Sequence record: NC_070870.1
Source: Escherichia phage phi G17
Length of the DNA: 64,000 nucleotides
Strand: one strand, 5' to 3'
Shown in pieces: positions 10,607 through 59,426 of the stretch. Numbering within the stretch: the stretch's first letter is position 1; each line of letters starts with the position of its first letter. The position numbers and the translations under genes were made by a program. The notes beneath the pieces were generated by a model. It searched no databases. It saw only the letters and a program-made list of their open reading frames with translations, and had not been told where the DNA came from.

Positions 10607-10669
10607 TACACTGGCTTACTGTAGAGTAGGCTTCCTATATACGATATAAGTTTGAACAGGAAACATGCT

Positions 10670-16600: not shown

Positions 16601-19600
16601 TATGACCAGCGTGAAGGTGCTACAGATGACCTGTTACGTGTAGGTGCTGAGCAGATTGAACGTAACCTGCGTAACATTGCTCTGGGTGTAGATATTCGCC
16701 ACAAAGTAATGAACCAGGTACAGACCACTGTTGACCAGATGGCTGCTGTAGGTGCTCCTTATGTGAACAACGGTAAAATCTCTCTGGAAGGTCTGACGGT
16801 AGACCAGCAAGTAGCTAAGCTGAACGAACTGTTTGATGCTGAATTAAACAAGCGTCGTGATGCAGTACGTGCTGCTAAAGCAGAACCAGTGAAAGAAGTA
16901 CCGGCAATGGAACAAGTTGGTCGTGTGCTTAAGTCAGGTGTACGTCTGCTGTCCAATACTGCCATTACTAAACTGGCTAAAGAGATGTCCCCAGAACAGC
17001 AAGCAGTATTGAAAGAAGTACAGAACTCCCTTGCTGCTAAAGACTACAAGGTTGTTTATGGTACTCCTGCTCAACTGGATGCTTATGCTATTGAGAAGAA
17101 CATTACTCGCCCAGCACCGGAAGATATTGAAGCTGCTGAAGCAGGTAATGCATACGGCTGGACTAACTTTGATGATAAGACTATCTACTTAGTTACCCCT
17201 TCCTTAGAGACTCTGGTTCATGAATTGGTACATGCTTCTACTTTTGAATCTGTACTGGCTCACTACGAGGGTACTCCTAATGAAGCAGTCCAGAATATTG
17301 AAGACTTGATGAACCAGTTCCGTGCTCTGGATGTTAAGGATGAATCCCCGGCAGTACGTGAAGCATATGCTGATGCACTCAATACCATTAACGGTCACTT
17401 GTCTAATGGTTTCATTGAGCCAGCAATGTCTAAAGCTGCTGCACTGAATGAGTACATGGCATGGGGCTTAACCAACCGTGAACTGATTGGTAAGCAGAAG
17501 AAGACCACTGCACTGAAAGCTATGGTTCAGTCTGTGTATGAAGCAATTAAGCGTCTGGTATTTGGTCGTAAGAAAGCACCTGTTAATGCAGATGATATGT
17601 TCTCTGGCTTACTGTTTAACTCATCTGTAGTTATGCGTGGACAGGCTCCTACTGCTGCTGTATCCAAGGACACTACCTTGTTCCATAGCAAAGCATATGG
17701 TGACAATACTCGTCTGGAAGAGTTAGGGCAGACCTTTGATAAGCTGATTACTAACTACATTGGTTCTGAACCAGTACAGCAAGTAATCCGTAAAGGTAAG
17801 TTTTCTGATGCAGTAGTGAATGCAACTAAAGTAACCCGTGATGTTCAGGCTCATGGCTTTACTATGAATATGCAGGAACAGCGACTGTTCACTAATATTG
17901 TTGCTGCTTTGGCTACTGAAGCTGCTATTAGTCCGGCTGCTCTTTCTCGTGCACAGGAATATTATGCACATGTTACTAAGAATCTGACTGTTGAAGCATT
18001 CATGACAGACCCGGATAGTACTAACCCTGCTGACCGTTATTATGCACAGCAGAAGTTCGATACCATCATGGGTGCTAATAATATTGAGTATGATGCACAG
18101 GGTCGTTCTTCCTTACTGCCTACCTTTGTGGCTCTGGCAATGGTAAGTGAAGATGTACGTAATGTACTGGCTGACATTCCTGTTATGAAAGCAGATAAGC
18201 AATCCGGTAATACCGTTGATGCAATGCTGACTAACATTGGTACTGCTGCAATGGCTAGCCTGAATGCTCGTGTAGCAGGTGACACTAAAGCTACTAACGT
18301 ACAGGAAGGTATGGATGCACTGGCTCAGACAATCATGCAGACTAGTCTTAATGCACAGTCATTCTATGATTCCATTGCTACCCCTAGTGGTAATGCTATC
18401 GACCGTGCTAACCAGTATCTGGTGGACTCTATTGATGTACTGTCCACCCGTGCTTTAGATGGTGCACGTGAGGTTGCAGCTAATACCAAGAATCCGTTGG
18501 TTAAGGGTGCTGCTCATGCTGCTCAACTGGTAGCTGCCATTGCTACAGAGAAGAATGGTGCAATCGTAGCTGAAGGTGTTATGGCTGCAATGAACCAGGG
18601 TAAAGCATGGCAACCTTTCCATGACCTGGTTAATGACTTAACCGGTCGTACTAAGAGCAATGCTTCTGTGTATGATTTAATTAAAGCAGTTCGTGCACAG
18701 GTACAGGCTGACCGTCAACAGTTCCGTGAACATCTGCCTACCACTATCGCATCTAAGTTCAGCCGTAAGCTGACCAATGATGAATGGAAAGCAATGCACA
18801 CTGGTATGGGTAAAACTGATTTGGCTGTTCTGCGTGACACTATGTCTCTGGCTGAAATCCGTGACTTGCTGACTGACCAGAAGATTGTTGACCGTGAAGT
18901 GAATAAGCTGGAAGCAGATTTGCAGAAGCAAGCTGGTCGTAACTGGCCCCTGATTAATCGTAAATCTAAGCAACTGGCTCAGTACATGATTAACGGTACA
19001 GTCGGTAATAACCTGCTGCGTAATGCTACTGCAATCTCCCGTATGCTGGGTGAACGTCAGGCTGCTCGCTCTACCGTAGATGTAGCTCAACTGGATAAAC
19101 TGATTACTCTGTATGCACTGGAAGCAATGAACAAGAAAGACCGTGAGATGTTATCTTCACTGGCTCAATCAGAAGTTGATGGAATGGACTTTGTTACTTC
19201 TTATCTGGTTGGTCAGCGTAAAGATGAAATGGCTAAAGCCAAATCTGATATGCGTGCAACCCTGAACCAGTACAAAGGGCATATCCCTAGCGAGAACAAA
19301 CAGGGTGTTAATCTGATTGTTGCTGAAGATAGTCAGTTTGCTGATTTGATTGAGAAGTCTTATGTACGTCTGGGTACTTATCAGGGTAGCTCTGCTAACC
19401 GTGGTCCGGCACGTAGCTACTACTTCGCACCAGTACAGGCACAGGCTCCATTCTCACAGGGTATCCTACAGAACGTTCGTAATACTGCTGGTGGTGTAGA
19501 CCTCGGCACAGGTTTTACGATGGGTTCAATGGTGGCTGGTCGTATTACTGACAAGCCTTCTGTAGACCGTATTACTAAAGCACTGGCTCGTGGTGAGCGT

Positions 19601-44488: not shown

Positions 44489-45663
44489 TATTTCATTCCT
44501 TTAGGGATATGAACTACCTCCCCAAAAGGTACGGTAGCACTAGGGTTATTCAGAACACACCAGATGATTGGAATATCAAACGGGAGTTCTTCCATTGGGC
44601 GAACGTACATATCAGAGAATATGATTGCAGCGGTTGGCTTATTCTTAATAATCCATTCGCGTACTGGTTCAAGGTTTGTACCACCACGACCAGTAATCTT
44701 AATCTCTTCAAAAGTATCTTCTTCAGTGATGTCTATTTCTTCTTGGATAATATCGTCGAAGGTAATAAGGGACATCTTCTTAGGATTGAACTGGCTCTTA
44801 ACGTAGGCAACCTCTGAGTTAAAACGCAGAGAGTCAGCACTACTGATAGAACCAGATACATCCTCAAAGTATGCTAAATGTCGTAAACGTCCTTCATCAT
44901 CTTCCAGGGATGGTAGATAGATGTCAGTGAAACGACGGTTAGGTCTGGCCCACGTATAGCGTGAGTCATCAATGTCAGTGAAGAAGTCCATAAGGACTTC
45001 CTGCCAAGGAACCACTGGTTTAAGGAATTGGGTAATAACCTCTTCCATATGACCAGCACCTTTACCTGGCATCACTCCACCAGCCATCTTCTGGCTTTGC
45101 ATTGCACGTACTACGTTGTTGACAACAGCACCCTGGGACTGCCCCGAAGAGGGAGCTTTCATGTCGCCAGCAAGACCTGCTCCGGCACCCCCTGACGGCT
45201 GCTGCCTTTTCTGTGGGTTCTTCATCAGGTCATCGTAGATGTCTTCTTCGACCCATCCTTTATATTGAGGGTCTTTGCAAATACCTTCGTCGATACCAGT
45301 GAACTTGTAACCATCTTCCTCTAACTGAAGGTTAATGAAGTGGTCACATGCCTGGTTCCAGACTTCTGGGTCACGGCTTCCACAACGGATGCCATGCAGA
45401 TATGCCACATGCCAGAGTTCGTGCATTAGCACTGTTTCTCTTGCATCAGGACACATCCAGATAAAGAAGTCTGGGTTGAATCGTAGTTCTATCCCATCGG
45501 TACATGCAGTAGGACAATCCTCACGATTCCATGAGAACTTAAGACTACACAGCAATGAACCAAAGAAAGCAGCACTCCTGCCCAAAAATGCCTGTGCTTG
45601 AATACGGTCATACTCACGCATGAGTTGTTCATCACTAAGTGTGTGCTGAGGTATCTGGTTCAT
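44488..45663 (-). CDS. VWA-domain protein with N-terminal HExxH metallopeptidase-like region (391 aa)
   Basis: MHELWHVAYLHG (HExxH); MIDAS-like DVSGSIS; immediately downstream of MoxR-like ATPase. Confidence 0.55.
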   Translation of the reverse strand: MNQIPQHTLSDEQLMREYDRIQAQAFLGRSAAFFGSLLCSLKFSWNREDCPTACTDGIELRFNPDFFIWMCPDARETVLMHELWHVAYLHGIRCGSRDPEVWNQACDHFINLQLEEDGYKFTGIDEGICKDPQYKGWVEEDIYDDLMKNPQKRQQPSGGAGAGLAGDMKAPSSGQSQGAVVNNVVRAMQSQKMAGGVMPGKGAGHMEEVITQFLKPVVPWQEVLMDFFTDIDDSRYTWARPNRRFTDIYLPSLEDDEGRLRHLAYFEDVSGSISSADSLRFNSEVAYVKSQFNPKKMSLITFDDIIQEEIDITEEDTFEEIKITGRGGTNLEPVREWIIKNKPTAAIIFSDMYVRPMEELPFDIPIIWCVLNNPSATVPFGEVVHIPKGMK

Positions 45664-45670
45664 GATGTAA

Positions 45671-46723
45671 TTATCCGTGAATGTAGCGGGAGATATTGGC
45701 AGCAGCCTTACGCCATTCAGGGGTAGCCTGAATTTCTGGTAATGCTTTGCCTACTGTACGGAAGTACAGAATCTTATGGGTGAACGTTTTAAAGCGTTCA
45801 ATGTACTGAAGAACATCAGCGAAGTTATCTTCAGTGGTCTTGTTAGCCAGATGGTTAACGGTAGCCCAACACAGGTTATTATCTTCCGGCAGTGCACAGC
45901 CCATGGGGTCTTTGACTACCTTCTCAATCGTAATCATACGATTGTATACCTGAGTGAACTGTACAAACTCCACAGCTTTACCCGGTGTAACAAATCCACT
46001 GTAGTAAAGGGAATCTTCATCAGGCAGTGCCCCTTCGGGGCAGTTATGTAAGTCCTTGTTAATGAAGTCCCATGTTCTCGGACACGCGAATGTTTTGTTC
46101 TTATGTGCTGGGTCGAAGTCATGCAGGTAGCCTGGGTTAGCATGTAAGAATGCAACCAGACGTTCATCCCACTCATATGGAATCATTACGTCTTCAACAA
46201 AGATGTCGAAGTTAAGTTCCATTTCGAAGTGTACAACACGAGACTGCATTGCAGTACCCAGTGGGTTAACGATGGCACGGTCAGTAGCTTTGTTACCGGC
46301 ACAGACAATCATCACATTGGGGTGAAGTTTCTTCTGACCGGTCATACGGTCAAGAATCAGCTTGTATGCAGCAGCTACTACTTCTTTCTTAGCTGAGTTG
46401 AACTCATCCAGGAACAGGAGCCAGCCATTATAACCTTCAGGGATTTCATCCCCTTCAATAGGGAACAGGTCAGCGAATGGAATAAATTCTGCACGGTCAC
46501 CATTACGGAATGGTAGACCGGACAAGTCTTCAGGAGCAGAAGTAGACAGACGATGGTCAATCAGCTTCATGCCAAATTCCTCTGCAACAGAACGAATGAT
46601 CGCAGACTTACCCATGCCTGGTGATGAAGTCAGAAACGGAACGTTACCTGCTTGCAAGGCACGGATGATAAAGTTACGGGCTTGACGTGTATTACATACG
46701 GTCAAGGAGTCAATGCTCGCCAT
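45671..46723 (-). CDS. MoxR-like AAA+ ATPase (350 aa)
   Basis: Walker A SSPGMGKSAI, Walker B LLFLDEF, sensor-like CAGNKATDRA; AGGAG upstream. Confidence 0.65.
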   Translation of the reverse strand: MASIDSLTVCNTRQARNFIIRALQAGNVPFLTSSPGMGKSAIIRSVAEEFGMKLIDHRLSTSAPEDLSGLPFRNGDRAEFIPFADLFPIEGDEIPEGYNGWLLFLDEFNSAKKEVVAAAYKLILDRMTGQKKLHPNVMIVCAGNKATDRAIVNPLGTAMQSRVVHFEMELNFDIFVEDVMIPYEWDERLVAFLHANPGYLHDFDPAHKNKTFACPRTWDFINKDLHNCPEGALPDEDSLYYSGFVTPGKAVEFVQFTQVYNRMITIEKVVKDPMGCALPEDNNLCWATVNHLANKTTEDNFADVLQYIERFKTFTHKILYFRTVGKALPEIQATPEWRKAAANISRYIHG

Positions 46724-51132: not shown

Positions 51133-51951
51133 TTAGTCTTCGTTTACTAATTCTTTATCAGCGAACTCCAGTACAGCTTTGTTGTAACTGGTTCCTTGAT
51201 AGTTGATGTGATAGCCCTGAGCGTAAGTACGCCCACGTTTATCGAATTTGTGACCTAGTGAGAAGTTATTACCCTCTTGGGTCACTAACTCCATTACTTC
51301 CTTAGCAGTACGGCTGTACTTCTCAAAGGCTTTGACACGTTTCTCATAGTCCTGACGGGTTTCACCCTCTTTAGGTTTATCCATGTTAGGACGGGAGTCT
51401 TTTACATAGTTAGCAACGTCCCAGTTAATACAGAGACGTTGGTTGTTCATACGGTTGATGTGGTCAAGACAGACATCCATCTCATGATGGTTCTTCTTGA
51501 GGATGATTGAGCCTTTGGACTCATAGTAACCAGTATCCCGGTTAGTCAGGACAGGCTTAGGTTTACTTACGATAGGCAATGGATACTGGAATGCCTCCAG
51601 TTCCATCTGAACATCTTCACTAATCTCATAGATAACACCGAACTTGTCGATGGTAGGGTCATAGTTGAAGCAGTCATTCTCTGCCATCTTATACAGACAG
51701 TCAGCGATATACTGAGCATCATCTGAGTGACTCATGAGAGAGCCAATCATAGTCTGAATGTCAGCACGTTTATGTAGGGCAATCTGCACCATTGCATCAA
51801 TGAGCAGCTTATAATCAATTTCCAGGTAGGCAGCGAATGCCTTAAAGTCAATTTCTTTGGATTCCTCGAACTCTTTCCTCATGCGAGGCAAAAGTTGATT
51901 CTTATTAAATAGTTTTTCGAGGGTTTTCTGGTGCTCAATGGATGCGTACAT
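51133..51951 (-). CDS. T7-like RNA polymerase N-terminal-half homolog; RNAP II small-subunit-like (272 aa)
   Basis: HKFDKRGRTYAQG resembles the T7 RNAP DWRGRVYA motif; directly upstream of the catalytic subunit. Confidence 0.75.
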   Translation of the reverse strand: MYASIEHQKTLEKLFNKNQLLPRMRKEFEESKEIDFKAFAAYLEIDYKLLIDAMVQIALHKRADIQTMIGSLMSHSDDAQYIADCLYKMAENDCFNYDPTIDKFGVIYEISEDVQMELEAFQYPLPIVSKPKPVLTNRDTGYYESKGSIILKKNHHEMDVCLDHINRMNNQRLCINWDVANYVKDSRPNMDKPKEGETRQDYEKRVKAFEKYSRTAKEVMELVTQEGNNFSLGHKFDKRGRTYAQGYHINYQGTSYNKAVLEFADKELVNED

Positions 51952-52001
51952 AGCTTCTTTCCTTTAATGAGTTAATTACCACAAGGTGCGGAGCACCCTT
52001 C

Positions 52002-52349
52002 TTATGACCAGTAGTTGTAATCGTCACCTAAGTACGGTTTCCATTGTTCAGGGAGCAGTACATTACCGGTGACATTAATGAATTGATGTGGAAGTAGGTC
52101 TTCCGAGATTGCTACTTTGAAATCCCATTGAGGATTCATAGAGGCATAAGCAATAAATCCATTAATGAATTTCTGCACATCCTCTTGGTTCAATAAACCA
52201 TCACGACCTTGCGTAGGAATAGCAAAGCTATTTCCGTATTGACCATAGGCCATACCCCAACGAGCACCATGCTTCTTATAAGCCAGCTTGGCTGAGTCAG
52301 ATGAGTGCTGGCCCATAAAGTTAGATGTGAATACGAATATCTCTTTCAT
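52002..52349 (-). CDS. Hypothetical protein (115 aa)
   Basis: ORF. Confidence 0.45.
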   Translation of the reverse strand: MKEIFVFTSNFMGQHSSDSAKLAYKKHGARWGMAYGQYGNSFAIPTQGRDGLLNQEDVQKFINGFIAYASMNPQWDFKVAISEDLLPHQFINVTGNVLLPEQWKPYLGDDYNYWS

Positions 52350-52353
52350 GTTA

Positions 52354-52674
52354 TTAACCCTTTGGTTTAAGTACTTGGAATGCGAATACAGGACGTTTAC
52401 TACGCCATTGGTTCATAGCTAGTTCACTGGTATGTGAGCCGTCATGTAAGTCGTATATGAATGTAATCATATATTCTGGTTCTTCTGGGAAGTTCTCTGT
52501 AGAGAATGGAAGACCAGCTTCCTTTAATACAGGAACCAGTGGTGATTCAGCTACGCAGTAGATAATGAACTCTTCACTGAATGCTTTACTACTCTGAGAT
52601 ACGTAATCAATATTACGCATCATCTTATCGACATCAGTAAATGTATTATCATGTACTACTACAATGCTATTCAT
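52354..52674 (-). CDS. Hypothetical protein (106 aa)
   Basis: ORF. Confidence 0.45.
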   Translation of the reverse strand: MNSIVVVHDNTFTDVDKMMRNIDYVSQSSKAFSEEFIIYCVAESPLVPVLKEAGLPFSTENFPEEPEYMITFIYDLHDGSHTSELAMNQWRSKRPVFAFQVLKPKG

Positions 52675-52928
52675 ACTTTCTCCAGTGTACTGTAGATTGA
52701 ATCTTTAGTGGGTTTATAGTGCGTATTAAGCCCTATATCTTCTTGCTTACCTTTCTTACTAACCCATATTCCATGGTCAGTTAGTTTAGGTTTATGACTG
52801 AATCCAATTAAGGTTGAACTCTTAGTAAATGTATTTGGAAGCAAAGCAATGTAATTAACCCATAAAGGGACATCGACAGTGCTTCCCATATATTCAACCA
52901 TCTTGTGAGTAGGATAGGTAATAATCAC
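52671..52928 (-). CDS. Hypothetical protein (85 aa)
   Basis: ORF with overlapping stop/start. Confidence 0.4.
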   Translation of the reverse strand: MIITYPTHKMVEYMGSTVDVPLWVNYIALLPNTFTKSSTLIGFSHKPKLTDHGIWVSKKGKQEDIGLNTHYKPTKDSIYSTLEKV

Positions 52929-53146
52929 TTCTGGTATCCTTGTATATAGTTAATACGACGAATACGTTGAGTAGATGCCTTAACAGCCATCTGTTGATTC
53001 TCTTCTTTGTGCTGATTTTCCAGCACCTTAGCCCATTCTTCCTGGTTCCGTTGTTTCTGTAATATACGACTACAACGTTTATGATTGGCAACTCCACGTC
53101 CTTTCTTACAGACTGGGCAAATACCATAATCGCTTGTGTACATCAT
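52925..53146 (-). CDS. Small Cys-containing protein (73 aa), possible zinc-ribbon
   Basis: CPVCKK...HKRC; chosen over overlapping 77-aa frame. Confidence 0.4.
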   Translation of the reverse strand: MMYTSDYGICPVCKKGRGVANHKRCSRILQKQRNQEEWAKVLENQHKEENQQMAVKASTQRIRRINYIQGYQK

Positions 53147-53451
53147 TGGCTTAAAGCCTCCATTAATATTTTACGAATAACGTTAACATCAGATTCAGTA
53201 CCAATTAAACCAACAGGTTTCTTAGTACCATCAGTGACAAAGGATGCAATCCTTTCCATCTCTGCTGTAATTAATTTGTCACCACTAATAAGACGATTAC
53301 GAAGGTAAGCTTCATAAGCTACCTCTACATCTTCTACCGTGGTTCTTTCATTACGAGTGAATGGATTACTTAATGGGAAGGGTAAATGTACCCGTATATT
53401 CCTGTCAGCTACCTTAGCTAGGTGAGGAAGTATACATACTATTTCATTCAA
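53143..53451 (-). CDS. Hypothetical protein (102 aa, TTG start)
   Basis: AGGAG 8 nt upstream of TTG. Confidence 0.4.
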   Translation of the reverse strand: MNEIVCILPHLAKVADRNIRVHLPFPLSNPFTRNERTTVEDVEVAYEAYLRNRLISGDKLITAEMERIASFVTDGTKKPVGLIGTESDVNVIRKILMEALSQ

Positions 53452-53488
53452 GGTTCTTTCTCCTATTTAAATACATATCTAACTATTC

Positions 53489-53527
53489 AAAAATAAAAAA
53501 TAGGAGCCTCCTATTGGAGGACTCCTA
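53489..53527 (-). terminator. Intrinsic terminator (minus strand), bulged double stem + UUUUUUAUUUUU
   Basis: UAGGAG-u-CCUCC-aaua-GGAGG-CUCCUA. Confidence 0.6.
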
Positions 53528-53584
53528 GTTCTACTAATGCACCATAGGTTAACAGTGCACACATAATTAATGTTATAGGCCAAT

Positions 53585-53797
53585 TCATATAAATGGGTAT
53601 AGGTAGTTGACTACACAATAATATACGAACCATAAACCATAGCCTATGCTCAATCCCTTAGTTAATGCAGTAACATAACCAAATATTGCAAAACCTCTGG
53701 CATCATTATTAGTAACAAAGGTTTTAGTGATATTACCAGCTGCATTAGTGAGCCAAACGTTCAGGTATAGTAATACTATAAAGATTATAAAGTACAT
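53585..53797 (-). CDS. Small membrane protein (70 aa)
   Basis: Hydrophobic FIIFIVLLYLNVWL and LSIGYGLWFVYYCVV. Confidence 0.45.
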   Translation of the reverse strand: MYFIIFIVLLYLNVWLTNAAGNITKTFVTNNDARGFAIFGYVTALTKGLSIGYGLWFVYYCVVNYLYPFI

Positions 53798-53799
53798 TA

Positions 53800-53931
53800 T
53801 TAATTTCCTAAGATTGGATGATTGAAGGTAACAATCTTACGTACTGGTTCAGTTGTCTGTTGCTTAGCAGCCAGACGCTCTTTCATCTTTTGTACGTCAG
53901 CTTTGGTTCCCATGATTAATGACTTACGCAT
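53800..53931 (-). CDS. Possible small ORF (43 aa), below the 60-aa ORF track threshold
   Basis: ATG overlaps stop of upstream small ORF (ATGCGTAA); translated by hand. Confidence 0.25.
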   Translation of the reverse strand: MRKSLIMGTKADVQKMKERLAAKQQTTEPVRKIVTFNHPILGN

Positions 53932-54094
53932 GTTTGGTACTCCACATAAAGTTAAAAGGTTTATTGTTACGTACAATTCTTACAGCCATTTGATGACCAT
54001 TGATTTGCACAACACCATAGTGTCGTTTCTGGTCACCAGTGTGATATCTACGATAGATACACTCTTCAATGGCATCCTCAATGTTAGTGAACAT
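53924..54094 (-). CDS. Possible small ORF (56 aa), below the ORF track threshold
   Basis: ATG overlaps upstream stop (ATGA); translated by hand as MFTNIEDAIEECIYRRYHTGDQ... Confidence 0.3.
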   Translation of the reverse strand: MFTNIEDAIEECIYRRYHTGDQKRHYGVVQINGHQMAVRIVRNNKPFNFMWSTKHA

Positions 54095-54336
54095 CACTGG
54101 TTCCTCTTTGCATAGTCTTCTGCTTCTTTAGCCCAGAGTTGCTTACGAACTTCTTTGGCTATGATGGAAGCAAACAGACACTTAACGAATACAACTGGTA
54201 ACTTAACAATGAGGATAGTCTTAGTGACTACCCACTTAACTAATTTCAGTGCAATGAATCTCACTCGGTAAGCCACATAGAAGATGAACAACCATGTAGC
54301 AACAGAGATTAAATAGCCTAATTCGTATACAGACAT
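54094..54336 (-). CDS. Small membrane protein (80 aa)
   Basis: Hydrophobic LISVATWLFIFYVAY. Confidence 0.45.
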   Translation of the reverse strand: MSVYELGYLISVATWLFIFYVAYRVRFIALKLVKWVVTKTILIVKLPVVFVKCLFASIIAKEVRKQLWAKEAEDYAKRNQ

Positions 54337-54439
54337 AGTACATATCCTCTTCTAATATAAATCTATATCTAACTGGTTACTGTTTCAGTACCCTTCGTCT
54401 AAAGATACTCAAAAAGTAGAAATAGCTTATCGCATAGTT

Positions 54440-54469
54440 AAAAATAAAAGGACTACCCGAAGGTAGTCC
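54440..54469 (-). terminator. Intrinsic terminator (minus strand) GGACTACC-ttcg-GGTAGTCC + TTTTATTTTT
   Basis: 8-bp stem, UUCG loop, T-run. Confidence 0.65.
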
Positions 54470-54478
54470 AGTTGTTGA

Positions 54479-54862
54479 TTAGAAAGTCAGTTTACGAGCA
54501 TATTTATTCTCGTCTGCTGGGATGTCAGCAGCCTCTGCTTTCACACGACGAAGTTGAACTTGCAGGTTAATGATACCTTCTTCACCTGGTTCCAGGTTCT
54601 GAGCATATTCGATTAACTGTTCCAGCAAATCGTTCTGTGCACAACGCATAGCACGGAAGTCAGCATTGCTGCTGTTAGTAGGCAGTGCTTCCTGAGTATC
54701 CAGTGGAATACCAGTAGGCAGAGAGATGAACTTCTCTTCTTCAGAGCCTTCGTTAGCAACATAACCAATGTTCAACCAGAACTGAGCCTTAGGCTTAGCA
54801 GCTTTAGTTTCAGTGGTAGCAGCAGCGTTAGATTGACCGAAAGTGAATTTTTGAATAGACAT
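54479..54862 (-). CDS. Hypothetical early protein (127 aa from ATG at 54862; track start 54961 is GTG)
   Basis: GGAGAG upstream of ATG. Confidence 0.45.
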
Positions 54863-54992
54863 TTTGTACTCTCCAGATAAATGATTGTTTGATTTATGGG
54901 TTTGTCTGTCGGTGACTAAACCCAAGAAAAGACTTAAGATTTCAATGATTAGTGGATTCACATGAATCCTTTAGACGCGGAGCGTCTGGTTT

Positions 54993-55286
54993 TTAAGACA
55001 AGCGTTTAAGCAACTCTGCTCTAGCAGATTCGTAGTCAGAACTATTCTGTCTTACTGCATCTTCGAAGCGAGCCAGTAGTTCTTCCTTATCAGGACCAAC
55101 AAGTTCTTCCCATTGCCATACATAACCAGTTAATGGAACAAGTTCTCCTTTCTGGAAGTAAGGATATTGTCCAAGTAGAACAGTAGAATCTTTAGTGAGA
55201 ACTATCGTTTCTCCACTAAGTTCTCCTTCAATAATTGTTCCAACAGGAAGTTCAGAATTGCCTTTGATACAACGGAATTTAGTCAT
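54993..55286 (-). CDS. Hypothetical early protein (97 aa)
   Basis: ORF. Confidence 0.45.
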   Translation of the reverse strand: MTKFRCIKGNSELPVGTIIEGELSGETIVLTKDSTVLLGQYPYFQKGELVPLTGYVWQWEELVGPDKEELLARFEDAVRQNSSDYESARAELLKRLS

Positions 55287-55376
55287 GATTTTCTATCCTT
55301 AAAGTAGATAAATATCTACTTAGACTATCTATCTAATCTTTATAAAAGGAGACTCCGAAGAGCCTCCTATATTGAT

Positions 55377-55700
55377 TTAGTCTTTAGTCAGGATGTCGAT
55401 TACTTTTGAATATTCTGCGTTATAGATACGAGCGTTCTCAGAATCTTTGCAGAATTCTTCGATACTTTTCTTACGCAGAGTTTCGTTCATAGCTGTTTCT
55501 TCAGCTAATTTGTTTACGAATGTATGCATTTCTAATTTAGTACGGATGGCTTGTTTCTCAGCCATAGTAGATACATATGAGTTAAGCATACCAACTGCTT
55601 TAGTAGCTGTGCCGAATGTATCAGCAACAGTAGTAGCAGCAGAGTTAACAGTACCAAGTAAAGTTCCTGCGGTCATACGTACAGTAGCGGTAGTAGTCAT
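55377..55700 (-). CDS. Hypothetical early protein (107 aa)
   Basis: GGAG 8 nt upstream of ATG. Confidence 0.5.
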   Translation of the reverse strand: MTTTATVRMTAGTLLGTVNSAATTVADTFGTATKAVGMLNSYVSTMAEKQAIRTKLEMHTFVNKLAEETAMNETLRKKSIEEFCKDSENARIYNAEYSKVIDILTKD

Positions 55701-55849
55701 GATGATAGCTCCAAGGTTAGATGATAGGACGACATGTCCATAACATGCGGAGCATGTGTAACGTGTAAGGTGGGGTAGGGCAGTGGCTACACGGTCAACA
55801 TACCGGGGGGGATGGTTGAGTGTAAGGGTGTAGCCCCAGCCACACCACT

Positions 55850-55900
55850 ACAGCTATACATAGCTATCAATATTTTGATATGCAAAAATATCATAGCTAT
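55850..55900. promoter_or_regulatory. Candidate operator/promoter element: direct repeats of CATAGCTATC flanking an AT-rich inverted repeat
   Basis: CATAGCTATC-aatattttgatatgcaaaaatat-CATAGCTATC read directly from plus strand; in 205-bp gap between early genes. Confidence 0.35.
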
Positions 55901-55905
55901 CTCAC

Positions 55906-56193
55906 TTATAAGCAGTTAAATAGGAGGTGAGGGGTTTGGTAGCTATCTGTATTCACATGCCACGGGGAGGACATGCTTCCCTCCCACGGGAGTACCTTTC
56001 CTGGTTCAAGTACCCTTACTATAAGTTTCTTACCTGCTATCAGTGCCAAGCCTTGTAACTCATGAAGGGTATCTTCATCGGGGACCAGAACCAGTGTGGC
56101 TTTAGCTAGCTTTAGATCTTGGAAGTCTATCTGTCTTTTTACAGAGTCGGGTCTATACCCTTTAAGAGGAATACGCGTGATAATCATAGTCAT
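55906..56193 (-). CDS. Small early protein, member of the tandem paralog family (95 aa)
   Basis: Shares LVLVPDEDTLHELQGLALIAG core with neighbours. Confidence 0.45.
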   Translation of the reverse strand: MTMIITRIPLKGYRPDSVKRQIDFQDLKLAKATLVLVPDEDTLHELQGLALIAGKKLIVRVLEPGKVLPWEGSMSSPWHVNTDSYQTPHLLFNCL

Positions 56194-56552
56194 ACGCCGT
56201 AGTCTATCTTAACCAATCTGCCTTTGTAGTAGCCAAAGTTCTTGGGAAAGGCATCATATTCGTAGAACTCTCTGGATAACTCACAAGAGTGGTATAGGGA
56301 TTCTAACTCACACCAGAATAACCCCTCATTGTTAACTTTACTGGCTCTAGCCATGACAACCAGTAGGCCAAATCTATTCGAGTAATGGATTGGACATAGA
56401 TGCTTGTCTGGGTAATCTTTCCATTGACCCTCTGTAAGGTTGCTAAGCATACCCTGTACAAAGGTCTTCCATGTCTTGGGGATAGGGAACTTAATAGCAT
56501 ACTTACGTGTTAATAGTACCCATCTGGTTCCACCTGATTTAATCAGTCTCAT
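56190..56552 (-). CDS. Hypothetical early protein (120 aa)
   Basis: ORF. Confidence 0.4.
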   Translation of the reverse strand: MRLIKSGGTRWVLLTRKYAIKFPIPKTWKTFVQGMLSNLTEGQWKDYPDKHLCPIHYSNRFGLLVVMARASKVNNEGLFWCELESLYHSCELSREFYEYDAFPKNFGYYKGRLVKIDYGV

Positions 56553-56756
56553 GGTTTTAGTAACCTCAGTATAAGTTTAAACATTACCAGTTCTATAAGA
56601 TGGTGCTTTGGTGATTATACGGATAGTTCTGAAGGAGTTACCTTCTCTTACCGTACCGGTCGGAAGTACACGGTAACTTTATTCCGGGACATTAAACCCC
56701 AGCGTGGGTTGAATATTTCCTGGGTAGATACCCCTCCTTCAAACATCATGAATAGT

Positions 56757-57071
56757 TTAAGGTTCATACTTCAGTACCTGATTAAGAAGACTATCCATGT
56801 AATAGCAGTATGCCTCGGAGGATTCGTCATTAATAGGAAGACCAATTAAGCCAAAGGTGTATATGCAGAAGTGATTGAGTTCATGAACCAAGGTGATAGG
56901 GTCATTATCTTTTGCATAGATGAGTACCGAACCATTAGGGAGTAGTGAGGTTATACCTTTGCTTCCATCCTCTGGTTCAATGCCTTTAGCCTTCTTATAT
57001 TTCTTAGAGAAGGTAGACCAGTCATGTACTACTTCTAACTGTACTGGATAGGGGGATGTGTTTAGTTTCAT
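56757..57071 (-). CDS. Small early protein, paralog-family member (104 aa)
   Basis: VVHDW...ITLVHELNHF matches family core; the HELNH is more likely the family HE(L/V)xG-type motif than a true metalloprotease HExxH. Confidence 0.45.
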   Translation of the reverse strand: MKLNTSPYPVQLEVVHDWSTFSKKYKKAKGIEPEDGSKGITSLLPNGSVLIYAKDNDPITLVHELNHFCIYTFGLIGLPINDESSEAYCYYMDSLLNQVLKYEP

Positions 57072-57391
57072 TAGATACTCTCGTCGCTAGATAAATATGA
57101 GGTAGAAGGATAAAGGGTAATCAGTCTACCGGTAAGGGTAGTAGCTACCATAGGTTCACAAGTAGATAGGATGTATACACCTTTATTCTTAGGTACTTCG
57201 ACAGGGGTATCTATCTTAATAAAAGTAACTGGTATACCTAACATTAAGCATGTACCAAGGAATTCATCAGCTTCTTGACTAGGTTCATACAGGACTGTAG
57301 TAGTCTTAGCCTTACCGTTGTACCAATCCTGCTTTGTTATGCTGGATAGATAGCAACTATCACTGTAGTTAGCTAAACAATAGAAGTGCAT
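57071..57391 (-). CDS. Small early protein, weak paralog-family member (106 aa)
   Basis: ORF; EPSQEADEFLGTCLMLG weakly matches family core. Confidence 0.4.
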   Translation of the reverse strand: MHFYCLANYSDSCYLSSITKQDWYNGKAKTTTVLYEPSQEADEFLGTCLMLGIPVTFIKIDTPVEVPKNKGVYILSTCEPMVATTLTGRLITLYPSTSYLSSDESI

Positions 57392-57394
57392 AGC

Positions 57395-57709
57395 TTACTT
57401 CCTTACATAGTAGTAACGGTATTCGTCATTCTCATAACGACTATCCCATTGGTATTCATCAGATACCAGCATGTATGGGATAGGATCATTAGCACTGTGG
57501 TTTGTATAGACGGAAGGGGGAACAAGACATACAACCTTACGGTCATTACTTGCCAAGAAGAGTTGACCCCTTACTTCATGGTAATCCTCTAAGGTAGGAA
57601 CCAGGATTACTTGATGTGGGTTACTGTTCATGACCTCTTCTAAAGTGAAGTCAGTTGTGTACATAGACACCCTTTCAGCAAAACTGGGGATGGTCATTAT
57701 AAATTTCAT
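57395..57709 (-). CDS. Small early protein, paralog-family member (104 aa)
   Basis: VILVPTLEDYHEVRGQLFLAS. Confidence 0.45.
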   Translation of the reverse strand: MKFIMTIPSFAERVSMYTTDFTLEEVMNSNPHQVILVPTLEDYHEVRGQLFLASNDRKVVCLVPPSVYTNHSANDPIPYMLVSDEYQWDSRYENDEYRYYYVRK

Positions 57710-58073
57710 GATTGGTTCTCCTTCCTTTAGGAAGAGGTCTGAAGTAAATGGAAAGTGTTTTATTAAAGACGTTATGGTCAGCTATCAATTCCCAACCGTC
57801 TATCTTATAGAAGCGTACACCGGGGAAGAACTCATTGAATCCTATATAGCGGGTAAGGTCATACACCTTTGGTTCAGTAAGTATCTCAGTGTTAAGCTGA
57901 AGGTTGTATAAGAAAAGAGAACCAATAACCTCATGGGACTCTTCGCAGTCAGGTAAGAATACTGATTGCCATGGAGCAATGAACTTACTTACTGCTTCTG
58001 GTTCCCCAAGGTAATAGGGTTCCTGCTTATGAAGTACTCCAGTAATATCAATATCAAAACAGTAGATGCTCAT
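57675..58073 (-). CDS. Small early protein, paralog-family member (132 aa)
   Basis: VFLPDCEESHEVIGSLFLYN; GGAGG upstream of ATG. Confidence 0.45.
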   Translation of the reverse strand: MSIYCFDIDITGVLHKQEPYYLGEPEAVSKFIAPWQSVFLPDCEESHEVIGSLFLYNLQLNTEILTEPKVYDLTRYIGFNEFFPGVRFYKIDGWELIADHNVFNKTLSIYFRPLPKGRRTNHEIYNDHPQFC

Positions 58074-58087
58074 AATTGCATACCTCC

Positions 58088-58125
58088 AGAAAAAGAAATG
58101 GGGTAGAGCCTCTCGACTCTACCCC
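58088..58125 (-). terminator. Intrinsic terminator (minus strand) GGGGTAGAG-8 nt loop-CTCTACCCC + ATTTCTTTTTCT
   Basis: 9-bp stem and T-rich tract directly before the RBS of the next gene. Confidence 0.55.
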
Positions 58126-58161
58126 TTACCGTTTTCAATCACGGGTCAGTTCATCCCCCTA

Positions 58162-58269
58162 GGTACTTATGTACCGTTAGACCAACTGGGTTGGCAAAGG
58201 AGCCGGGGAACCCTGACTGTAGAAGTTATTAACTCTTTACGAGTACCGCCACTGTCTACTAGGCGGTAT
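58162..58269. promoter_or_regulatory. Cluster of three short hairpins in early-region gap (GGTAC-ttat-GTACC, CCAAC-tgg-GTTGG, TACCGCC-12 nt-GGCGGTA); candidate promoter/regulatory hairpins
   Basis: Read directly; 5-7 bp stems with 3-4 nt loops, the architecture reported for single-strand hairpin promoters of N4-type virion RNAP, but no consensus could be verified. Confidence 0.3.
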
Positions 58270-58275
58270 GACTAA

Positions 58276-58593
58276 TCACATCGTCACCGTCATCCGAACG
58301 CTATCGTTGCTTCGTTTGATGGAGACACTATGAGGTAATTTTGTGAAGAACACAAGAGATGAAACAGACTTTTCTAAAGAGTAAGTTTCTTGTGGTTCTA
58401 AGATGGTAACACCGGGACGATTCTCTAATAACATCATTCCAGATAACTCATGGAAAGAATCCCAGTCATGGGTAACAACTATGTCACCCTTCATTAAGCC
58501 AGCCTTGGTGTGGCTTACTTCAAAGTATTTGTCTCCGGAGTCTTGGACTCTCATAAAGATTCTCAAGGGGTACTCCTTGGGGAATAAGGTCAT
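58276..58593 (-). CDS. First minus-strand early gene, paralog-family member (105 aa)
   Basis: IVVTHDWDSFHELSGMMLLEN. Confidence 0.45.
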   Translation of the reverse strand: MTLFPKEYPLRIFMRVQDSGDKYFEVSHTKAGLMKGDIVVTHDWDSFHELSGMMLLENRPGVTILEPQETYSLEKSVSSLVFFTKLPHSVSIKRSNDSVRMTVTM

Positions 58594-58736
58594 CGGAACA
58601 TTACATACTATTTAGTATCATGAACTTTTTCTATATCATGACTAAAGTGTAACTGTGTGGTAGAGTTTCTTCAAGGGGTATCTCACCCCAAGAAAAGAAT
58701 CTTCGTTAATAGACATAACTTTGTAGAGAGATAAGT

Positions 58737-59426
58737 ATGAGTGAACTAACTAAGCAGCAGATTGTTAATGCCTTACCTGCTAACTTCAAGAACAGTGTGA
58801 GCCAAGAGTTGGTAGACACGATTAACAACGTAACCCAGGACCAATTGGTTGCTGAGGCATTTCGTGAAAACTTCATCTCTTACTCTGGTGTCATGAAGGA
58901 AGGCAAGTTTAAGACACAGGACTACATGAATGCAGTTCAGTATGTAACTTACAAACACATGGGCTACTCGAATAAGGAAGCCTACTTCAAGACATTCCCC
59001 AACCGACAAGCAGAACTAGTAGCACGAGGAACCAGTGAGAAAGATATTAGTGCTTACGTATCTGCTTATCACAGAGGTAAGTTAGTTAACCTAATCATGG
59101 AACAAAGTTTGGTTCCAGTGTGGATTGTGAACCAAGACAATTATCAGAAGGCAATCAACGTACAGGTTGAACTAATGAATACGGCTGTTAGTGAGAAGGT
59201 TCGTTGCGATGCAGCTAACTCTATCCTTACTCACTTAGCTAAACCAAAAGATCAGGTAACGAATATCAATCTGGACTTGAGAGAGAACTCCGGGTTGACT
59301 GACCTCAAGGCAACACTTGCTGCATTGGCTGAACAGCAAATTAGTGCAATCAATAGTGGTGTACCTACTAAAGAGATTGCTGGTTCTAAACTCGTACGTG
59401 CAGATGAGGACATTACAGATGTCTGA
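58737..59426 (+). CDS. First gene of plus-strand late block (229 aa), possibly terminase small subunit or packaging accessory
   Basis: GAGAG upstream of ATG; stop overlaps terminase start (ATGTCTGA). Confidence 0.4.
   Translation: MSELTKQQIVNALPANFKNSVSQELVDTINNVTQDQLVAEAFRENFISYSGVMKEGKFKTQDYMNAVQYVTYKHMGYSNKEAYFKTFPNRQAELVARGTSEKDISAYVSAYHRGKLVNLIMEQSLVPVWIVNQDNYQKAINVQVELMNTAVSEKVRCDAANSILTHLAKPKDQVTNINLDLRENSGLTDLKATLAALAEQQISAINSGVPTKEIAGSKLVRADEDITDV

What the first reader, a model, noticed from the sequence alone, without database searches (positions are those of the whole stretch)
56757..57071. Early protein with an HExxH-like motif
The sequence LVHELNHF could be read as a zinc-metalloprotease HExxH, but in context it aligns with the HE(L/V)xG core of the neighbouring paralogs, so the family may be a divergent small metal-binding or nuclease-like fold.
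Basis: inference. Interest (0 to 1): 0.35.

Follow-up and report, generated by a model that had tools for sequence, protein, structure and literature searches.

The report
Stand-alone mini zinc-protease of phages
The 104-residue protein is most likely a minimal zinc metalloprotease of a large, uncharacterised phage family and is unrelated to its neighbour genes; this is a useful annotation, not a surprise.

Summary
The motif is real: ORF 56757-57071 (-) encodes LVHELNHF, with HELNH at 56871-56885.

For a zinc protease:
- The protein belongs to PHROG 1365 (unknown function), a phage family of at least 653 clusters at 50% identity.
- In 149 diverse members the only invariant residues are H63, E64, H67 and E86. 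Y90 is present in 146 of 149.
- That is the gluzincin signature, HExxH plus a Glu 19 residues downstream.
- A confident AlphaFold model (pLDDT 91.8) has the order strand-helix-strand-strand-helix(HExxH)-helix(Glu), the published minimal zincin core.

Against kinship with the neighbours:
- The four HE[LV]xG neighbours are an expanded N4 gp70/gp71 family, related to each other but not to the target.
- Profile-profile probability is 0.5-1.3%, and in a different register.

On "early":
- The window is a G7C-like N4-type coliphage (Gamaleyavirus).
- The gene sits in the right-end cluster just before the terminal repeat, upstream of all three virion-polymerase hairpin promoters. "Early" is therefore unsupported.
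- The gene is accessory: absent from the G7C genome ends and the N4 right end that were searched, and present in P22-like (hkcC), Vi1-like and T7-like phages.

Substrate and activity are untested. It is a new member of a known kind, of modest interest.

The parts
56757..57071 (-). CDS of the 104-aa stand-alone mini-gluzincin (PHROG 1365 member), 11.8 kDa, pI 5.2, with no signal peptide or membrane segment apparent on reading the sequence
   Evidence: ORF list. phrog_1365 at E 1.4e-24. 106 close homologs of 104-110 aa and 653 clusters in the representative search. AlphaFold model pLDDT 91.8. Physico-chemical values.
56871..56885 (-). Codons for H63-E64-L65-N66-H67 (HExxH) on predicted helix 58-75. 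Proposed roles: two zinc ligands (H63, H67) and the catalytic base (E64).
   Evidence: Read. H63, E64 and H67 invariant in 149 of 149 sequences. Helix assignment.
56814..56816 (-). Codon for E86, at the start of predicted helix 85-101. Proposed third zinc ligand (gluzincin 'glutamate helix').
   Evidence: Invariant in 149 of 149. Lies 19 residues after the second His in 134 of 148 representatives.
56802..56804 (-). Codon for Y90, one helical turn after E86 (ExxxY). Family-specific, near-invariant residue, proposed to point into the active site.
   Evidence: Tyr in 146 of 149 sequences. The structural role is inferred.
56913..56927 (-). Codons for residues 49-53 (VLIYA), the predicted strand just before the HExxH helix. 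Proposed substrate-binding edge strand. Most of the family has (V/I)-G-V-F here.
   Evidence: Strand 49-53 in the model. Column frequencies. The role is inferred from the general zincin architecture (PMC5512222).
57071..57391 (-). Upstream gene (G7C gp71.2 homolog, phrog_12099). Its stop overlaps the target's start by one base, suggesting co-transcription and translational coupling within the right-end cluster.

Best explanation
**What it is.** The ORF encodes a free-standing, cytoplasmic, minimal zincin-type metallopeptidase (a 'mini-gluzincin').

**Proposed mechanism.**
- H63 and H67 on the first C-terminal helix and E86 at the start of the second helix hold one Zn2+.
- Y90, one turn after E86, lines the site.
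- The strand at residues 49-53, just before the HExxH helix, docks the substrate peptide as an added strand.

**Biological setting.**
- It is an accessory gene that moves between unrelated phages.
- In this G7C-like N4-type phage it sits in the right-end gene cluster, next to four copies of the unrelated gp70/gp71 family and just before the terminal repeat.
- It most probably cleaves a host protein or another phage-conflict protein during infection.

**What is shown and what is inferred.**
- Shown: the conserved motif set, the predicted order of secondary-structure elements, the family size and distribution, and the lack of relationship to the neighbours.
- Inferred: zinc binding, catalysis, the substrate and the time of expression.
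For: **Motif conservation**
- HExxH is in 148 of 148 representatives.
- A Glu in E-x-x-x-Y/F context lies 19 residues after the second His in 134 of 148, and at 18-20 in 145 of 148.
- In alignment A2 (149 sequences, many at 20-35% identity) the only invariant columns are H63, E64, H67 and E86. G39 and Y90 exceed 90%.

**Predicted structure**
- The AlphaFold model has pLDDT 91.8 and pTM 0.84.
- Its elements are strand 12-15, helix 18-29, strands 39-43 and 49-53, helix 58-75 (HExxH) and helix 85-101 (E86).
- It also matches the ~110-residue mini-zincin scaffolds (PMC3890501).

**Database neighbours**
- Sub-threshold Pfam hits of family members are led by SprT-like (13 of 149) and DUF4344 putative metallopeptidase (7 of 149), with M50B, astacin, M4, M76 and M10 behind them. 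The list also holds single-member hits to unrelated families.
- All 12 sub-threshold PDB profile hits are HExxH zincins or the HExxH region of N4 virion RNA polymerase.
- Structural neighbours among predicted viral proteins are family-like phage proteins, plus ones annotated BepA-like protease, SprT-like and IrrE.
- hhalign against an alignment of the virion-polymerase metallopeptidase region gives 91.8% probability and E 7.5e-7 over 57 columns. Controls gave 0.1-0.2%.

**Accessory, mobile character**
- The family profile finds nothing in the G7C genome ends or the N4 right end that were fetched.
- Verified members occur in:
  - Det7;
  - Possum, between the small and large terminase genes;
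  - a T7-like Pseudomonas phage, between ligase and RNA polymerase;
  - P22-like hkcC, in the ant moron;
  - phage L Orf129.
- These five score E 2e-20 to 4e-32 against the family profile.
Against: - Foldseek against the PDB gave no significant match to any solved zincin (best E 0.24).
- No Pfam, NCBIfam or PADLOC model reaches threshold.
- The profile similarity to the virion-polymerase metallopeptidase domain is mostly carried by the HExxH motif. With the motif masked it falls to 2.1% probability, E 0.022, in the same register.
- I could not inspect model coordinates, so the ligand geometry itself was not measured.
- One homolog cluster (P0099, 10 sequences) has Tyr in place of H63.
- The solved mini-Glu-zincin prototype (provisional MEROPS M95) showed no detectable peptidase activity (PMC3890501), so fold plus motif does not guarantee an active protease.
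- No substrate, expression timing or phenotype is known. Family member hkcC of P22 is listed as 'unknown function' (PMC2629481).
Confidence: 0.8

Rival explanations
1. The protein is a divergent member of the neighbouring HE(L/V)xG paralog family (N4 gp70/gp71-like). The second His is incidental, and the whole group is some other small metal-binding or nuclease-like fold.
For: - The target shares a local pattern with the neighbours, a hydrophobic strand followed by an acidic loop and 'TL-HE-L'. Compare VLIYAKDNDPITLVHELNH with LVLVPDEDTLHELQG.
- It shares an operon, a similar size and an orientation with them.
- Some target homologs and some paralogs carry the same C-terminal tail, SYLTAYK(D).
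Against: - The family profiles A1 and A2, run with all filters off, find none of the four neighbours at E <= 10.
- The neighbour profile A3 finds the four paralogs and N4 gp70 and gp71, but not the target.
- hhalign A1 vs A3 gives 1.3% probability and A2 vs A3 gives 0.5%. The best local alignment pairs the neighbours' motif region with target residues 11-27, not with HELNH.
- BLASTP agrees: target 14-45 against neighbour 40-67.
- The neighbours have an invariant Gly where the target family has an invariant His. They lack the downstream invariant Glu.
- Their model, though poor (pLDDT 60), puts strands after the motif helix.
- The shared tail is better explained by recombination at the genome end.
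Confidence: 0.03
2. It has the zincin fold and binds metal but is not a protease in vivo. It would act as a stoichiometric binder, inhibitor or regulator (a pseudo-protease or latent scaffold), for example by clamping a host protein in its substrate groove.
For: - The prototype mini-Glu-zincins had no detectable activity (PMC3890501).
- The protein is very small, with no accessory domain to provide specificity.
- One natural variant lacks H63.
- The virion-polymerase C1 domain carrying HExxH is reported in a structural and allosteric role, with no proteolysis shown (PMC13434306; PMC5512222).
Against: The catalytic base E64 is invariant in 149 of 149 diverse sequences, together with all three ligands. 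Pure binders usually lose the base first. A cluster of 10 sequences with H63Y is a rare exception among 106 clusters.
Confidence: 0.12
3. It is a zinc hydrolase of the zincin fold acting on something other than a free protein. Candidates are DNA-protein crosslinks (SprT/Wss1-like) or a non-peptide amide bond.
For: - SprT-like is the most frequent sub-threshold Pfam hit (13 of 149, best E 0.0072).
- Spartan appears among the sub-threshold PDB hits.
- SprT-like annotated proteins are among the structural neighbours in the viral library.
Against: - No hit reaches the Pfam gathering score.
- SprT/Wss1 enzymes use a third His ligand and carry DNA-binding parts (my knowledge of those families). Here the third invariant residue is Glu, and there is no extra domain in 104 residues.
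- The protein is acidic, pI 5.2, which is unfavourable for DNA binding.
Confidence: 0.04
4. The HExxH is an iron site of the alpha-ketoglutarate-dependent HExxH hydroxylase type rather than a zinc peptidase site.
For: The N4 polymerase paper notes that HExxH motifs also occur in enzymes fused to radical-SAM domains, the alphaKG-HExxH proteins (PMC13434306).
Against: - Those domains occur fused to radical-SAM domains and have their own distinct fold (reference 29). That they are much larger than 104 residues and sit in peptide natural-product gene clusters is my recollection.
- This is a 104-residue protein with the zincin element order, a Glu at gluzincin spacing, and no such neighbours.
Confidence: 0.01

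Closest known systems
Mini-zincins and mini-Glu-zincins: DUF1025/Acel_2062, and proabylysin/projannalysin (provisional MEROPS M95)
   Same: - Free-standing proteins of about 105-115 residues that consist of nothing but the zincin core: a three-stranded sheet, one N-terminal helix, the HExxH helix and one more helix carrying the third ligand (PMC3890501).
- The target has the same size, the same predicted element order and a Glu third ligand.
   Different: - No detectable sequence similarity. They are absent from the PDB profile hits at E <= 10 and from the top Foldseek hits.
- Those families are cellular (bacteria and archaea), whereas this one was seen only on phage genomes and phage-like contigs.
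- This family has its own ExxxY signature and an N-terminal P-Y motif.
Zincin-like metallopeptidase (MPTase) domains of polyvalent proteins, including the C1 domain of the N4-type virion RNA polymerase (Iyer et al. 2017; N4 gp50 residues about 2124-2448)
   Same: - Same motif set: T-L-[VI]-H-E-[LM]-x-H-A, then a Glu helix (SEAFCY here, NEFMAW in the polymerase).
- hhalign gives 91.8% probability over strand-helix-strand-strand-HExxH helix.
- Both are phage 'conflict' proteins, and a copy of the polymerase domain is encoded in this same window (HELVH at 17219-17233).
   Different: - The target stands alone instead of being embedded in a giant multidomain virion protein.
- It has 19 residues between the HExxH helix and the Glu, where the polymerase has an insert of about 85 residues.
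- The similarity is mostly motif-driven (2.1% probability with the motif masked).
- No Pfam MPTase-type model appeared among the 25 (of 46) member-hit families that one search lists.
SprT-like / Wss1 / Spartan (Pfam PF10263)
   Same: - Small HExxH zincin domain.
- Most frequent sub-threshold Pfam hit of family members (13 of 149).
- Spartan is among the sub-threshold PDB hits.
   Different: - Below the gathering score in every member.
- The third ligand is Glu rather than His, and there is no DNA-binding part.
- The protein is acidic.
N4 gp70/gp71 family: the four neighbouring HE[LV]xG paralogs at 55906-56193, 57395-57709, 57675-58073 and 58276-58593
   Same: Same operon, similar size, and a superficially similar 'strand, acidic loop, TL-HE-[LV]' stretch.
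   Different: - A different family: invariant H-E-x-x-G, no second His and no downstream Glu.
- hhalign probability 0.5-1.3%.
- Different predicted element order, though from a low-confidence model.

Membership tests
Zincin / gluzincin metallopeptidases (MEROPS clan MA, subclan E) | HExxH motif located on an alpha-helix | tested here: met
   HELNH at residues 63-67 lies inside predicted helix 58-75. It is invariant in 149 of 149 family members.
Zincin / gluzincin metallopeptidases (MEROPS clan MA, subclan E) | Third zinc ligand is a Glu on the next helix, some 18 or more residues after the second His | tested here: met
   E86 is invariant and sits at the start of helix 85-101. Spacing is +19 in 134 of 148 and +18 to +20 in 145 of 148.
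Zincin / gluzincin metallopeptidases (MEROPS clan MA, subclan E) | [quoted passage not shown] | tested here: inconclusive
   The order of secondary-structure elements in a pLDDT 91.8 model matches the published description (PMC5512222; PMC3890501). However, Foldseek found no significant solved zincin, and I could not inspect the coordinates or the ligand geometry.
Zincin / gluzincin metallopeptidases (MEROPS clan MA, subclan E) | Binds one catalytic Zn2+ and hydrolyses peptide bonds | not testable with these tools
   Needs biochemistry.
PHROG 1365 (phage protein family, function unknown) | Significant match to the family profile over most of its length | tested here: met
   E 1.4e-24, residues 1-101 against profile positions 6-114 of 127. 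All 149 members of A2 match phrog_1365.
N4 gp70/gp71-like HE[LV]xG paralog family (the neighbours) | Profile match, with the invariant H-E-x-x-G followed by the LEPG and SPW motifs | tested here: not met
   No hmmsearch hit in either direction. hhalign 1.3% and 0.5%. The target has His where the family has its invariant Gly, and it lacks LEPG and SPW.
SprT-like (Pfam PF10263) | Score at or above the Pfam gathering threshold | tested here: not met
   The target has no hit at E <= 1. Thirteen of 149 relatives have sub-threshold hits only, best E 0.0072.
MPTase domains of polyvalent proteins (Iyer et al. 2017) | Zincin-like domain embedded in a large multidomain 'polyvalent' protein delivered with the DNA | tested here: not met
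   The protein is a 104-residue single-domain ORF. Sequence-profile similarity to the polymerase MPTase region exists but is mostly motif-driven.
Mini-Glu-zincins (provisional MEROPS M95, proabylysin) | Detectable sequence or structure similarity to proabylysin or projannalysin | tested here: not met
   They are not among the PDB sequence-profile hits at E <= 10 nor among the 50 best Foldseek matches. The resemblance is in size and architecture only.
N4 early (virion-polymerase-transcribed) genes | Located downstream of a virion-polymerase hairpin promoter at the left genome end | tested here: not met
   The only three GC-GGA-GC 3-nt-loop hairpins lie at 55743-55757, 54973-54987 and 51985-51997, upstream of the gp1, gp2 and gp15 homologs. 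All are downstream of the target on the transcribed strand. N4 virion polymerase transcribes gp1, gp2, gp15 and gp16 (PMC13434306).

The most novel reading that the evidence does not exclude
PHROG 1365 is a phage-restricted family of minimal, stand-alone zinc proteases that spreads as a moron between unrelated phages. Members occur in N4-like, Vi1-like, T7-like and P22-like phages (hkcC in the last). On this reading it acts as a host-directed or counter-defence protease that cleaves a specific bacterial protein, for example an immune sensor or effector. In the one contig that prompted this idea, the gene lies directly after a Tad2-like anti-Thoeris gene (L026). Because P22 and its relatives carry a member, the idea is directly testable in a model system.
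Probability: 0.25. Interest if true: 0.6.

Novelty: new member of a known kind. Interest (0 to 1): 0.3.

Why it matters
- **Annotation.** It gives a mechanistic label (minimal HExxH+E zinc peptidase) to a large family that is blank in PHROGs, Pfam and NCBIfam. The family has at least 653 clusters at 50% identity. It includes genes of well-studied phages, such as P22-type hkcC and phage L Orf129.
- **Paralog count.** It corrects a tempting mis-assignment: the gene is not a fifth copy of the gp70/gp71 paralogs beside it.
- **Possible biology.** If the enzyme targets a host or defence protein, it would be among the smallest known proteases used in phage-host conflict, and a compact scaffold for protein engineering. 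As it stands, this is an expected kind of protein in an expected kind of place.

Tried and rejected
- **Solved structures.** Sequence searches of the PDB gave nothing significant, with the single protein, with the close alignment A1 and with the broad alignment A2. Foldseek of the model against the PDB also gave nothing significant.
- **Curated libraries.** Pfam, NCBIfam and PADLOC scans of the target and of relatives had no hit above threshold.
- **Related loci.** The search for related loci with A2 failed because the alignment is too diverse.
- **Polymerase homologs.** A protein-database search with the virion-polymerase metallopeptidase region returned only two hits. I built that alignment from 11 annotated Schitoviridae genomes instead.
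- **Neighbour fold.** Structure prediction for the neighbour family gave pLDDT 60. That is too poor to search with, so the third fold search was not used.
- **Conserved partner gene.** A context survey across nine metagenomic look-ups and seven annotated phages found no constant neighbour.
- **Literature.** Searches for PHROG 1365, hkcC, and N4 gp70-72 function or timing found nothing beyond 'unknown function'.
- **Readings rejected.** Membership of the neighbouring paralog family, an SprT-type enzyme and an alphaKG-HExxH hydroxylase were all considered and rejected. The reasons are under the rival explanations.

Full report
**1. What the window is**

The region around the finding is 84-88% identical in DNA to G7C-like N4-type coliphages such as IME11, PhAPEC7, G7C and Bp4 (genus Gamaleyavirus, family Schitoviridae).

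Comparison with the two ends of the G7C genome shows that the window runs through the genome ends:
- Window 57089-58999 matches the G7C right end (gp71.2 back to gp69).
- Window 55377-55927 matches the G7C terminal repeat, which contains gp1.
- Window 51221-54986 matches G7C gp2 to gp15.
- The G7C physical left end corresponds to about window 55840.

All genes from 58593 down to 52002 are on the - strand.

**2. The observation**

ORF 56757-57071 (-) starts with ATG, and its start overlaps the stop of the upstream gene by one base. It encodes 104 residues, including PITLVHELNHFCIY. HELNH is encoded at 56871-56885.

By composition, HExxH is expected about 0.003 times in a protein this long. Among the 126 stop-to-stop ORFs of at least 90 residues in the window, only three carry the motif:
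- the virion RNA polymerase, whose N4 counterpart has a published zincin-like domain around its HExxH;
- a DUF2201_N 'putative metallopeptidase' plus VWA protein;
- this ORF.

**3. The family**

The protein matches PHROG 1365, which has no assigned function, at E 1.4e-24. It matches nothing in Pfam or NCBIfam.
- A word-indexed search found 106 close homologs of 104-110 residues on contigs of about 70 kb.
- A full HMMER search of 1.84 billion cluster representatives, using a profile of those homologs, found 653 clusters at E <= 0.001. Nearly all are 95-150 residues long.
- All 149 sequences aligned from that set match PHROG 1365.

Conservation is sharply focused:
- All 148 representatives examined contain HExxH.
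- In 134 of them a Glu in E-x-x-x-Y/F context lies exactly 19 residues after the second His.
- In the 149-sequence alignment A2, where many members are only 20-35% identical to the target, the only invariant columns are H63, E64, H67 and E86.
- G39 (145 of 149) and Y90 (146 of 149) are nearly invariant. C89 is Cys in 87 and Ala in 50. An N-terminal P-Y pair is common.

Two His ligands, a catalytic Glu and a downstream Glu ligand are exactly the set that defines gluzincins.

**4. Predicted structure**

With the close-homolog alignment, AlphaFold2 gave a confident model (pLDDT 91.8, pTM 0.84). Its elements are strand 12-15, helix 18-29, strands 39-43 and 49-53, helix 58-75 and helix 85-101. HExxH lies in the first C-terminal helix, and E86 lies at the start of the second.

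Iyer et al. describe the zincin-like metallopeptidase core in the same terms. [quoted passage not shown] The first C-terminal helix carries HExxH and the second carries the Glu that completes the zinc site (PMC5512222). Trame et al. describe free-standing 'mini-zincins' and a 'mini-Glu-zincin' of about 110 residues with this minimal scaffold (PMC3890501).

Comparison with structure libraries:
- Foldseek against predicted viral structures returned many uncharacterised phage proteins (TM 0.7-0.85). It also returned a few annotated as BepA-like protease, SprT-like or IrrE.
- Foldseek against the PDB returned nothing significant.
- I could not read the coordinates, so the ligand geometry was not measured. 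This is the main gap in the structural argument.

**5. Links to known zincins**

- Pfam scans of the 149 members gave only sub-threshold hits. The list is led by SprT-like (13 members), DUF4344 putative metallopeptidase (7), M50B, astacin, M4, M76 and M10, and it also holds single-member hits to unrelated families.
- A profile search of PDB sequences gave 12 sub-threshold hits. All are HExxH zincins (BMP1/tolloid, M3B, Spartan, peptidyl-Lys endopeptidase) or the HExxH region of N4 virion RNA polymerase.
- I built an alignment of that polymerase region from this window and 11 other Schitoviridae. hhalign against A2 gave 91.8% probability and E 7.5e-7 over 57 columns, spanning the first strand to the HExxH helix.
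- Controls: the reversed alignment gave 0.1%, and the neighbour family against the polymerase region gave 0.2%. With the five motif columns masked, the match kept its register but fell to 2.1% (E 0.022).

The link is therefore real in direction but rests mostly on the motif.

**6. The neighbours are a different family**

The four neighbours with HE[LV]xG are at 55906-56193, 57395-57709, 57675-58073 and 58276-58593.
- They hit each other (BLASTP E 1e-6 to 5e-4 in a seven-protein set, plus PHROG cross-hits).
- Their joint alignment A3 has invariant H44, E45 and G48, plus VPDE, LEPG and SPW motifs.
- The A3 profile also finds N4 gp70 and gp71, so this is an expanded gp70/gp71 family.

The target is not part of that family:
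- Profiles A1 and A2, run with all filters off, find none of the four.
- Profile A3 does not find the target.
- hhalign gives 1.3% and 0.5%.
- The only weak local similarity pairs the neighbours' 'LVLVPDEDTLHE' with the target's residues 11-27 ('QLEVVHDWSTFS'), not with HELNH.
- The neighbour model is poor (pLDDT 60), but it shows strands after the motif helix rather than a second helix.

**7. Position and timing**

Three hairpins with a 3-nt GGA loop and a GC-GGA-GC core stand out on the template strand, at 55743-55757, 54973-54987 and 51985-51997. They lie just upstream of the homologs of gp1, gp2 and gp15. N4 virion polymerase uses single-stranded hairpin promoters and transcribes gp1, gp2, gp15 and gp16 (PMC13434306).

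Position of the target:
- It lies upstream of all three hairpins, in the right-end cluster. The order is gp70, a strong terminator at 58125-58100, gp71, gp71.1, gp71.2, the target, a 120-aa ORF and a 95-aa gp70/71 paralog. The terminal repeat follows.
- The three G7C stretches fetched have no match to window 55928-57088, which holds the target and most of the two genes after it. The family profile finds nothing in the G7C ends or the N4 right end, but does find PhAPEC7, Bp4 and KP8.
- Sigma-70-like promoters are depleted across 51500-58800 (5 found against 21 expected).

'Early' in the N4 sense is thus unsupported. The orientation matches the early and middle genes and is opposite to the late genes. 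My guess of middle-class expression is inference only.

**8. Distribution and context**

Verified family members (E 2e-20 to 4e-32 against A2, with Z set to 1e6) occur in several unrelated phage groups:
- Vi1-like Det7 (gp68).
- Pectobacterium phage Possum, between the small and large terminase genes.
- A T7-like Pseudomonas phage, between DNA ligase and RNA polymerase.
- P22-like phages, as hkcC in the ant moron opposite sieA.
- Phage L, as Orf129, upstream of dec and the terminase.

hkcC is listed as of unknown function (PMC2629481).

In the metagenomic contigs long enough to judge, the gene lies in arrays of small genes on phage-like contigs. It is often within a few kilobases of terminase or portal genes, and once directly after a Tad2-like gene. 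No neighbour is constant. This is the pattern of a mobile accessory gene.

**9. Interpretation**

The best-supported explanation is a stand-alone minimal gluzincin.
- Zinc is held by H63, H67 and E86, with E64 as general base and Y90 lining the site.
- The substrate docks on the strand at 49-53.
- The protein is acidic (pI 5.2), and I saw no signal peptide or membrane segment in the sequence, so a cytoplasmic target is likely.

I put 0.8 on the zincin metal-site assignment. I put about 0.6 on it being an active protease in vivo, because the solved mini-Glu-zincins were inactive in vitro and one natural variant has H63Y. The substrate is unknown. A host or defence protein is the most plausible class, given the accessory, moron-like distribution, but that is inference.

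**10. Verdict**

The motif is real and meaningful. The metalloprotease reading is right, and the paralog reading and the 'early' label are wrong. The protein is a new, unannotated member of a well-known kind (the zincin superfamily, mini-zincin scaffold). Interest is modest. The most useful products are an annotation for PHROG 1365, including P22-type hkcC, and a clean set of point mutants to test.

Noticed in passing
window 55906-56193, 57395-57709, 57675-58073, 58276-58593 (all - strand): Four paralogs of the N4 gp70/gp71 family sit in one cluster, with invariant H-E-x-x-G plus VPDE, LEPG and SPW motifs. Function and fold are unknown: the AlphaFold model reached only pLDDT 60, and there are no Pfam or PDB hits. 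N4 itself has two copies.
   Followed up: partly
window 55743-55757, 54973-54987, 51985-51997 (+ strand, which is the template for the - strand genes): Three hairpins with 5-6 bp stems, a GGA loop and a shared GC-GGA-GC core lie just upstream of the gp1, gp2 and gp15 homologs. They fit the three virion-RNA-polymerase early promoters of N4-type phages. They are the only GC-rich-stem GGA-loop hairpins among the five GGA-loop hairpins in the 64-kb window.
   Followed up: partly
window 10625-21019 (+), HELVH at 17219-17233: The giant virion RNA polymerase ORF carries the known zincin-like domain (LETLVHELVHAST ... ALNEYMAWG). The HExxH helix and the Glu helix are separated by an insert of about 85 residues. 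It is the weak second hit of the target-family profile within the window (E 0.00086).
   Followed up: partly
window 44491-45750 (-), HELWH at 45409-45423: A third HExxH protein of the phage: DUF2201_N putative metallopeptidase domain (E 4e-55) fused to a VWA-like DUF2201 domain (E 9e-34).
   Followed up: no
alignments A1 and A3 (homologs of 56757-57071 and of 55906-56193 in related phages): Some homologs of the target and many homologs of the unrelated 95-aa paralog end in the same tail, (P)SYLTAYK(D). This suggests that whichever gene is last before the terminal repeat is fused to a shared end sequence by recombination.
   Followed up: no
window 56553-56756: A 204-bp gap without a gene lies directly downstream of the target. 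Positions 56593-56660 are 88% identical to the 3' part of PhAPEC7 gp57, the gene that follows the target homolog there. It is apparently the remnant of a deleted gene.
   Followed up: partly
window 56190-56552 (-): This 120-aa ORF matches only the middle of PHROG 4301 (profile positions 40-167 of 225). By eye it contains kinase-like strings (YAIKFP, DAFPKN, KIDYG) and ends right after the last one. It may be a truncated protein-kinase-like gene. No Pfam or PDB support was found.
   Followed up: partly
window 58100-58125 (-): A strong intrinsic-terminator-like hairpin (11-bp stem, 7 GC pairs, T-run) lies between the gp70 and gp71 homologs, only 27 bp before the gp71 start. PhAPEC7 has a terminator annotated at the same place.
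   Followed up: no
window 55906-56193 (-): Compared with its closest homologs (101-109 aa), this paralog has an in-frame deletion of about 8-10 residues near the C-terminus (...NTDSY/QTPHLLFNCL).
   Followed up: no
protein P0099 (homolog cluster of 10 sequences, longest contig 67.7 kb): A natural variant of the target family has Tyr in place of the first zinc-ligand His (TLIYELNHF). It is either an inactivated copy or a sequencing variant.
   Followed up: no
window 51500-58800: Sigma-70-type promoter-like sites are strongly depleted (5 found, 21.3 +/- 4.3 expected from shuffles). This fits a region not read by unmodified host polymerase.
   Followed up: no
locus L026 5729-6570 (metagenomic phage contig): A 189-aa family member overlaps the stop of a Tad2-like (anti-Thoeris) gene. 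This is the only context hint toward a counter-defence role, and it is a single case.
   Followed up: no
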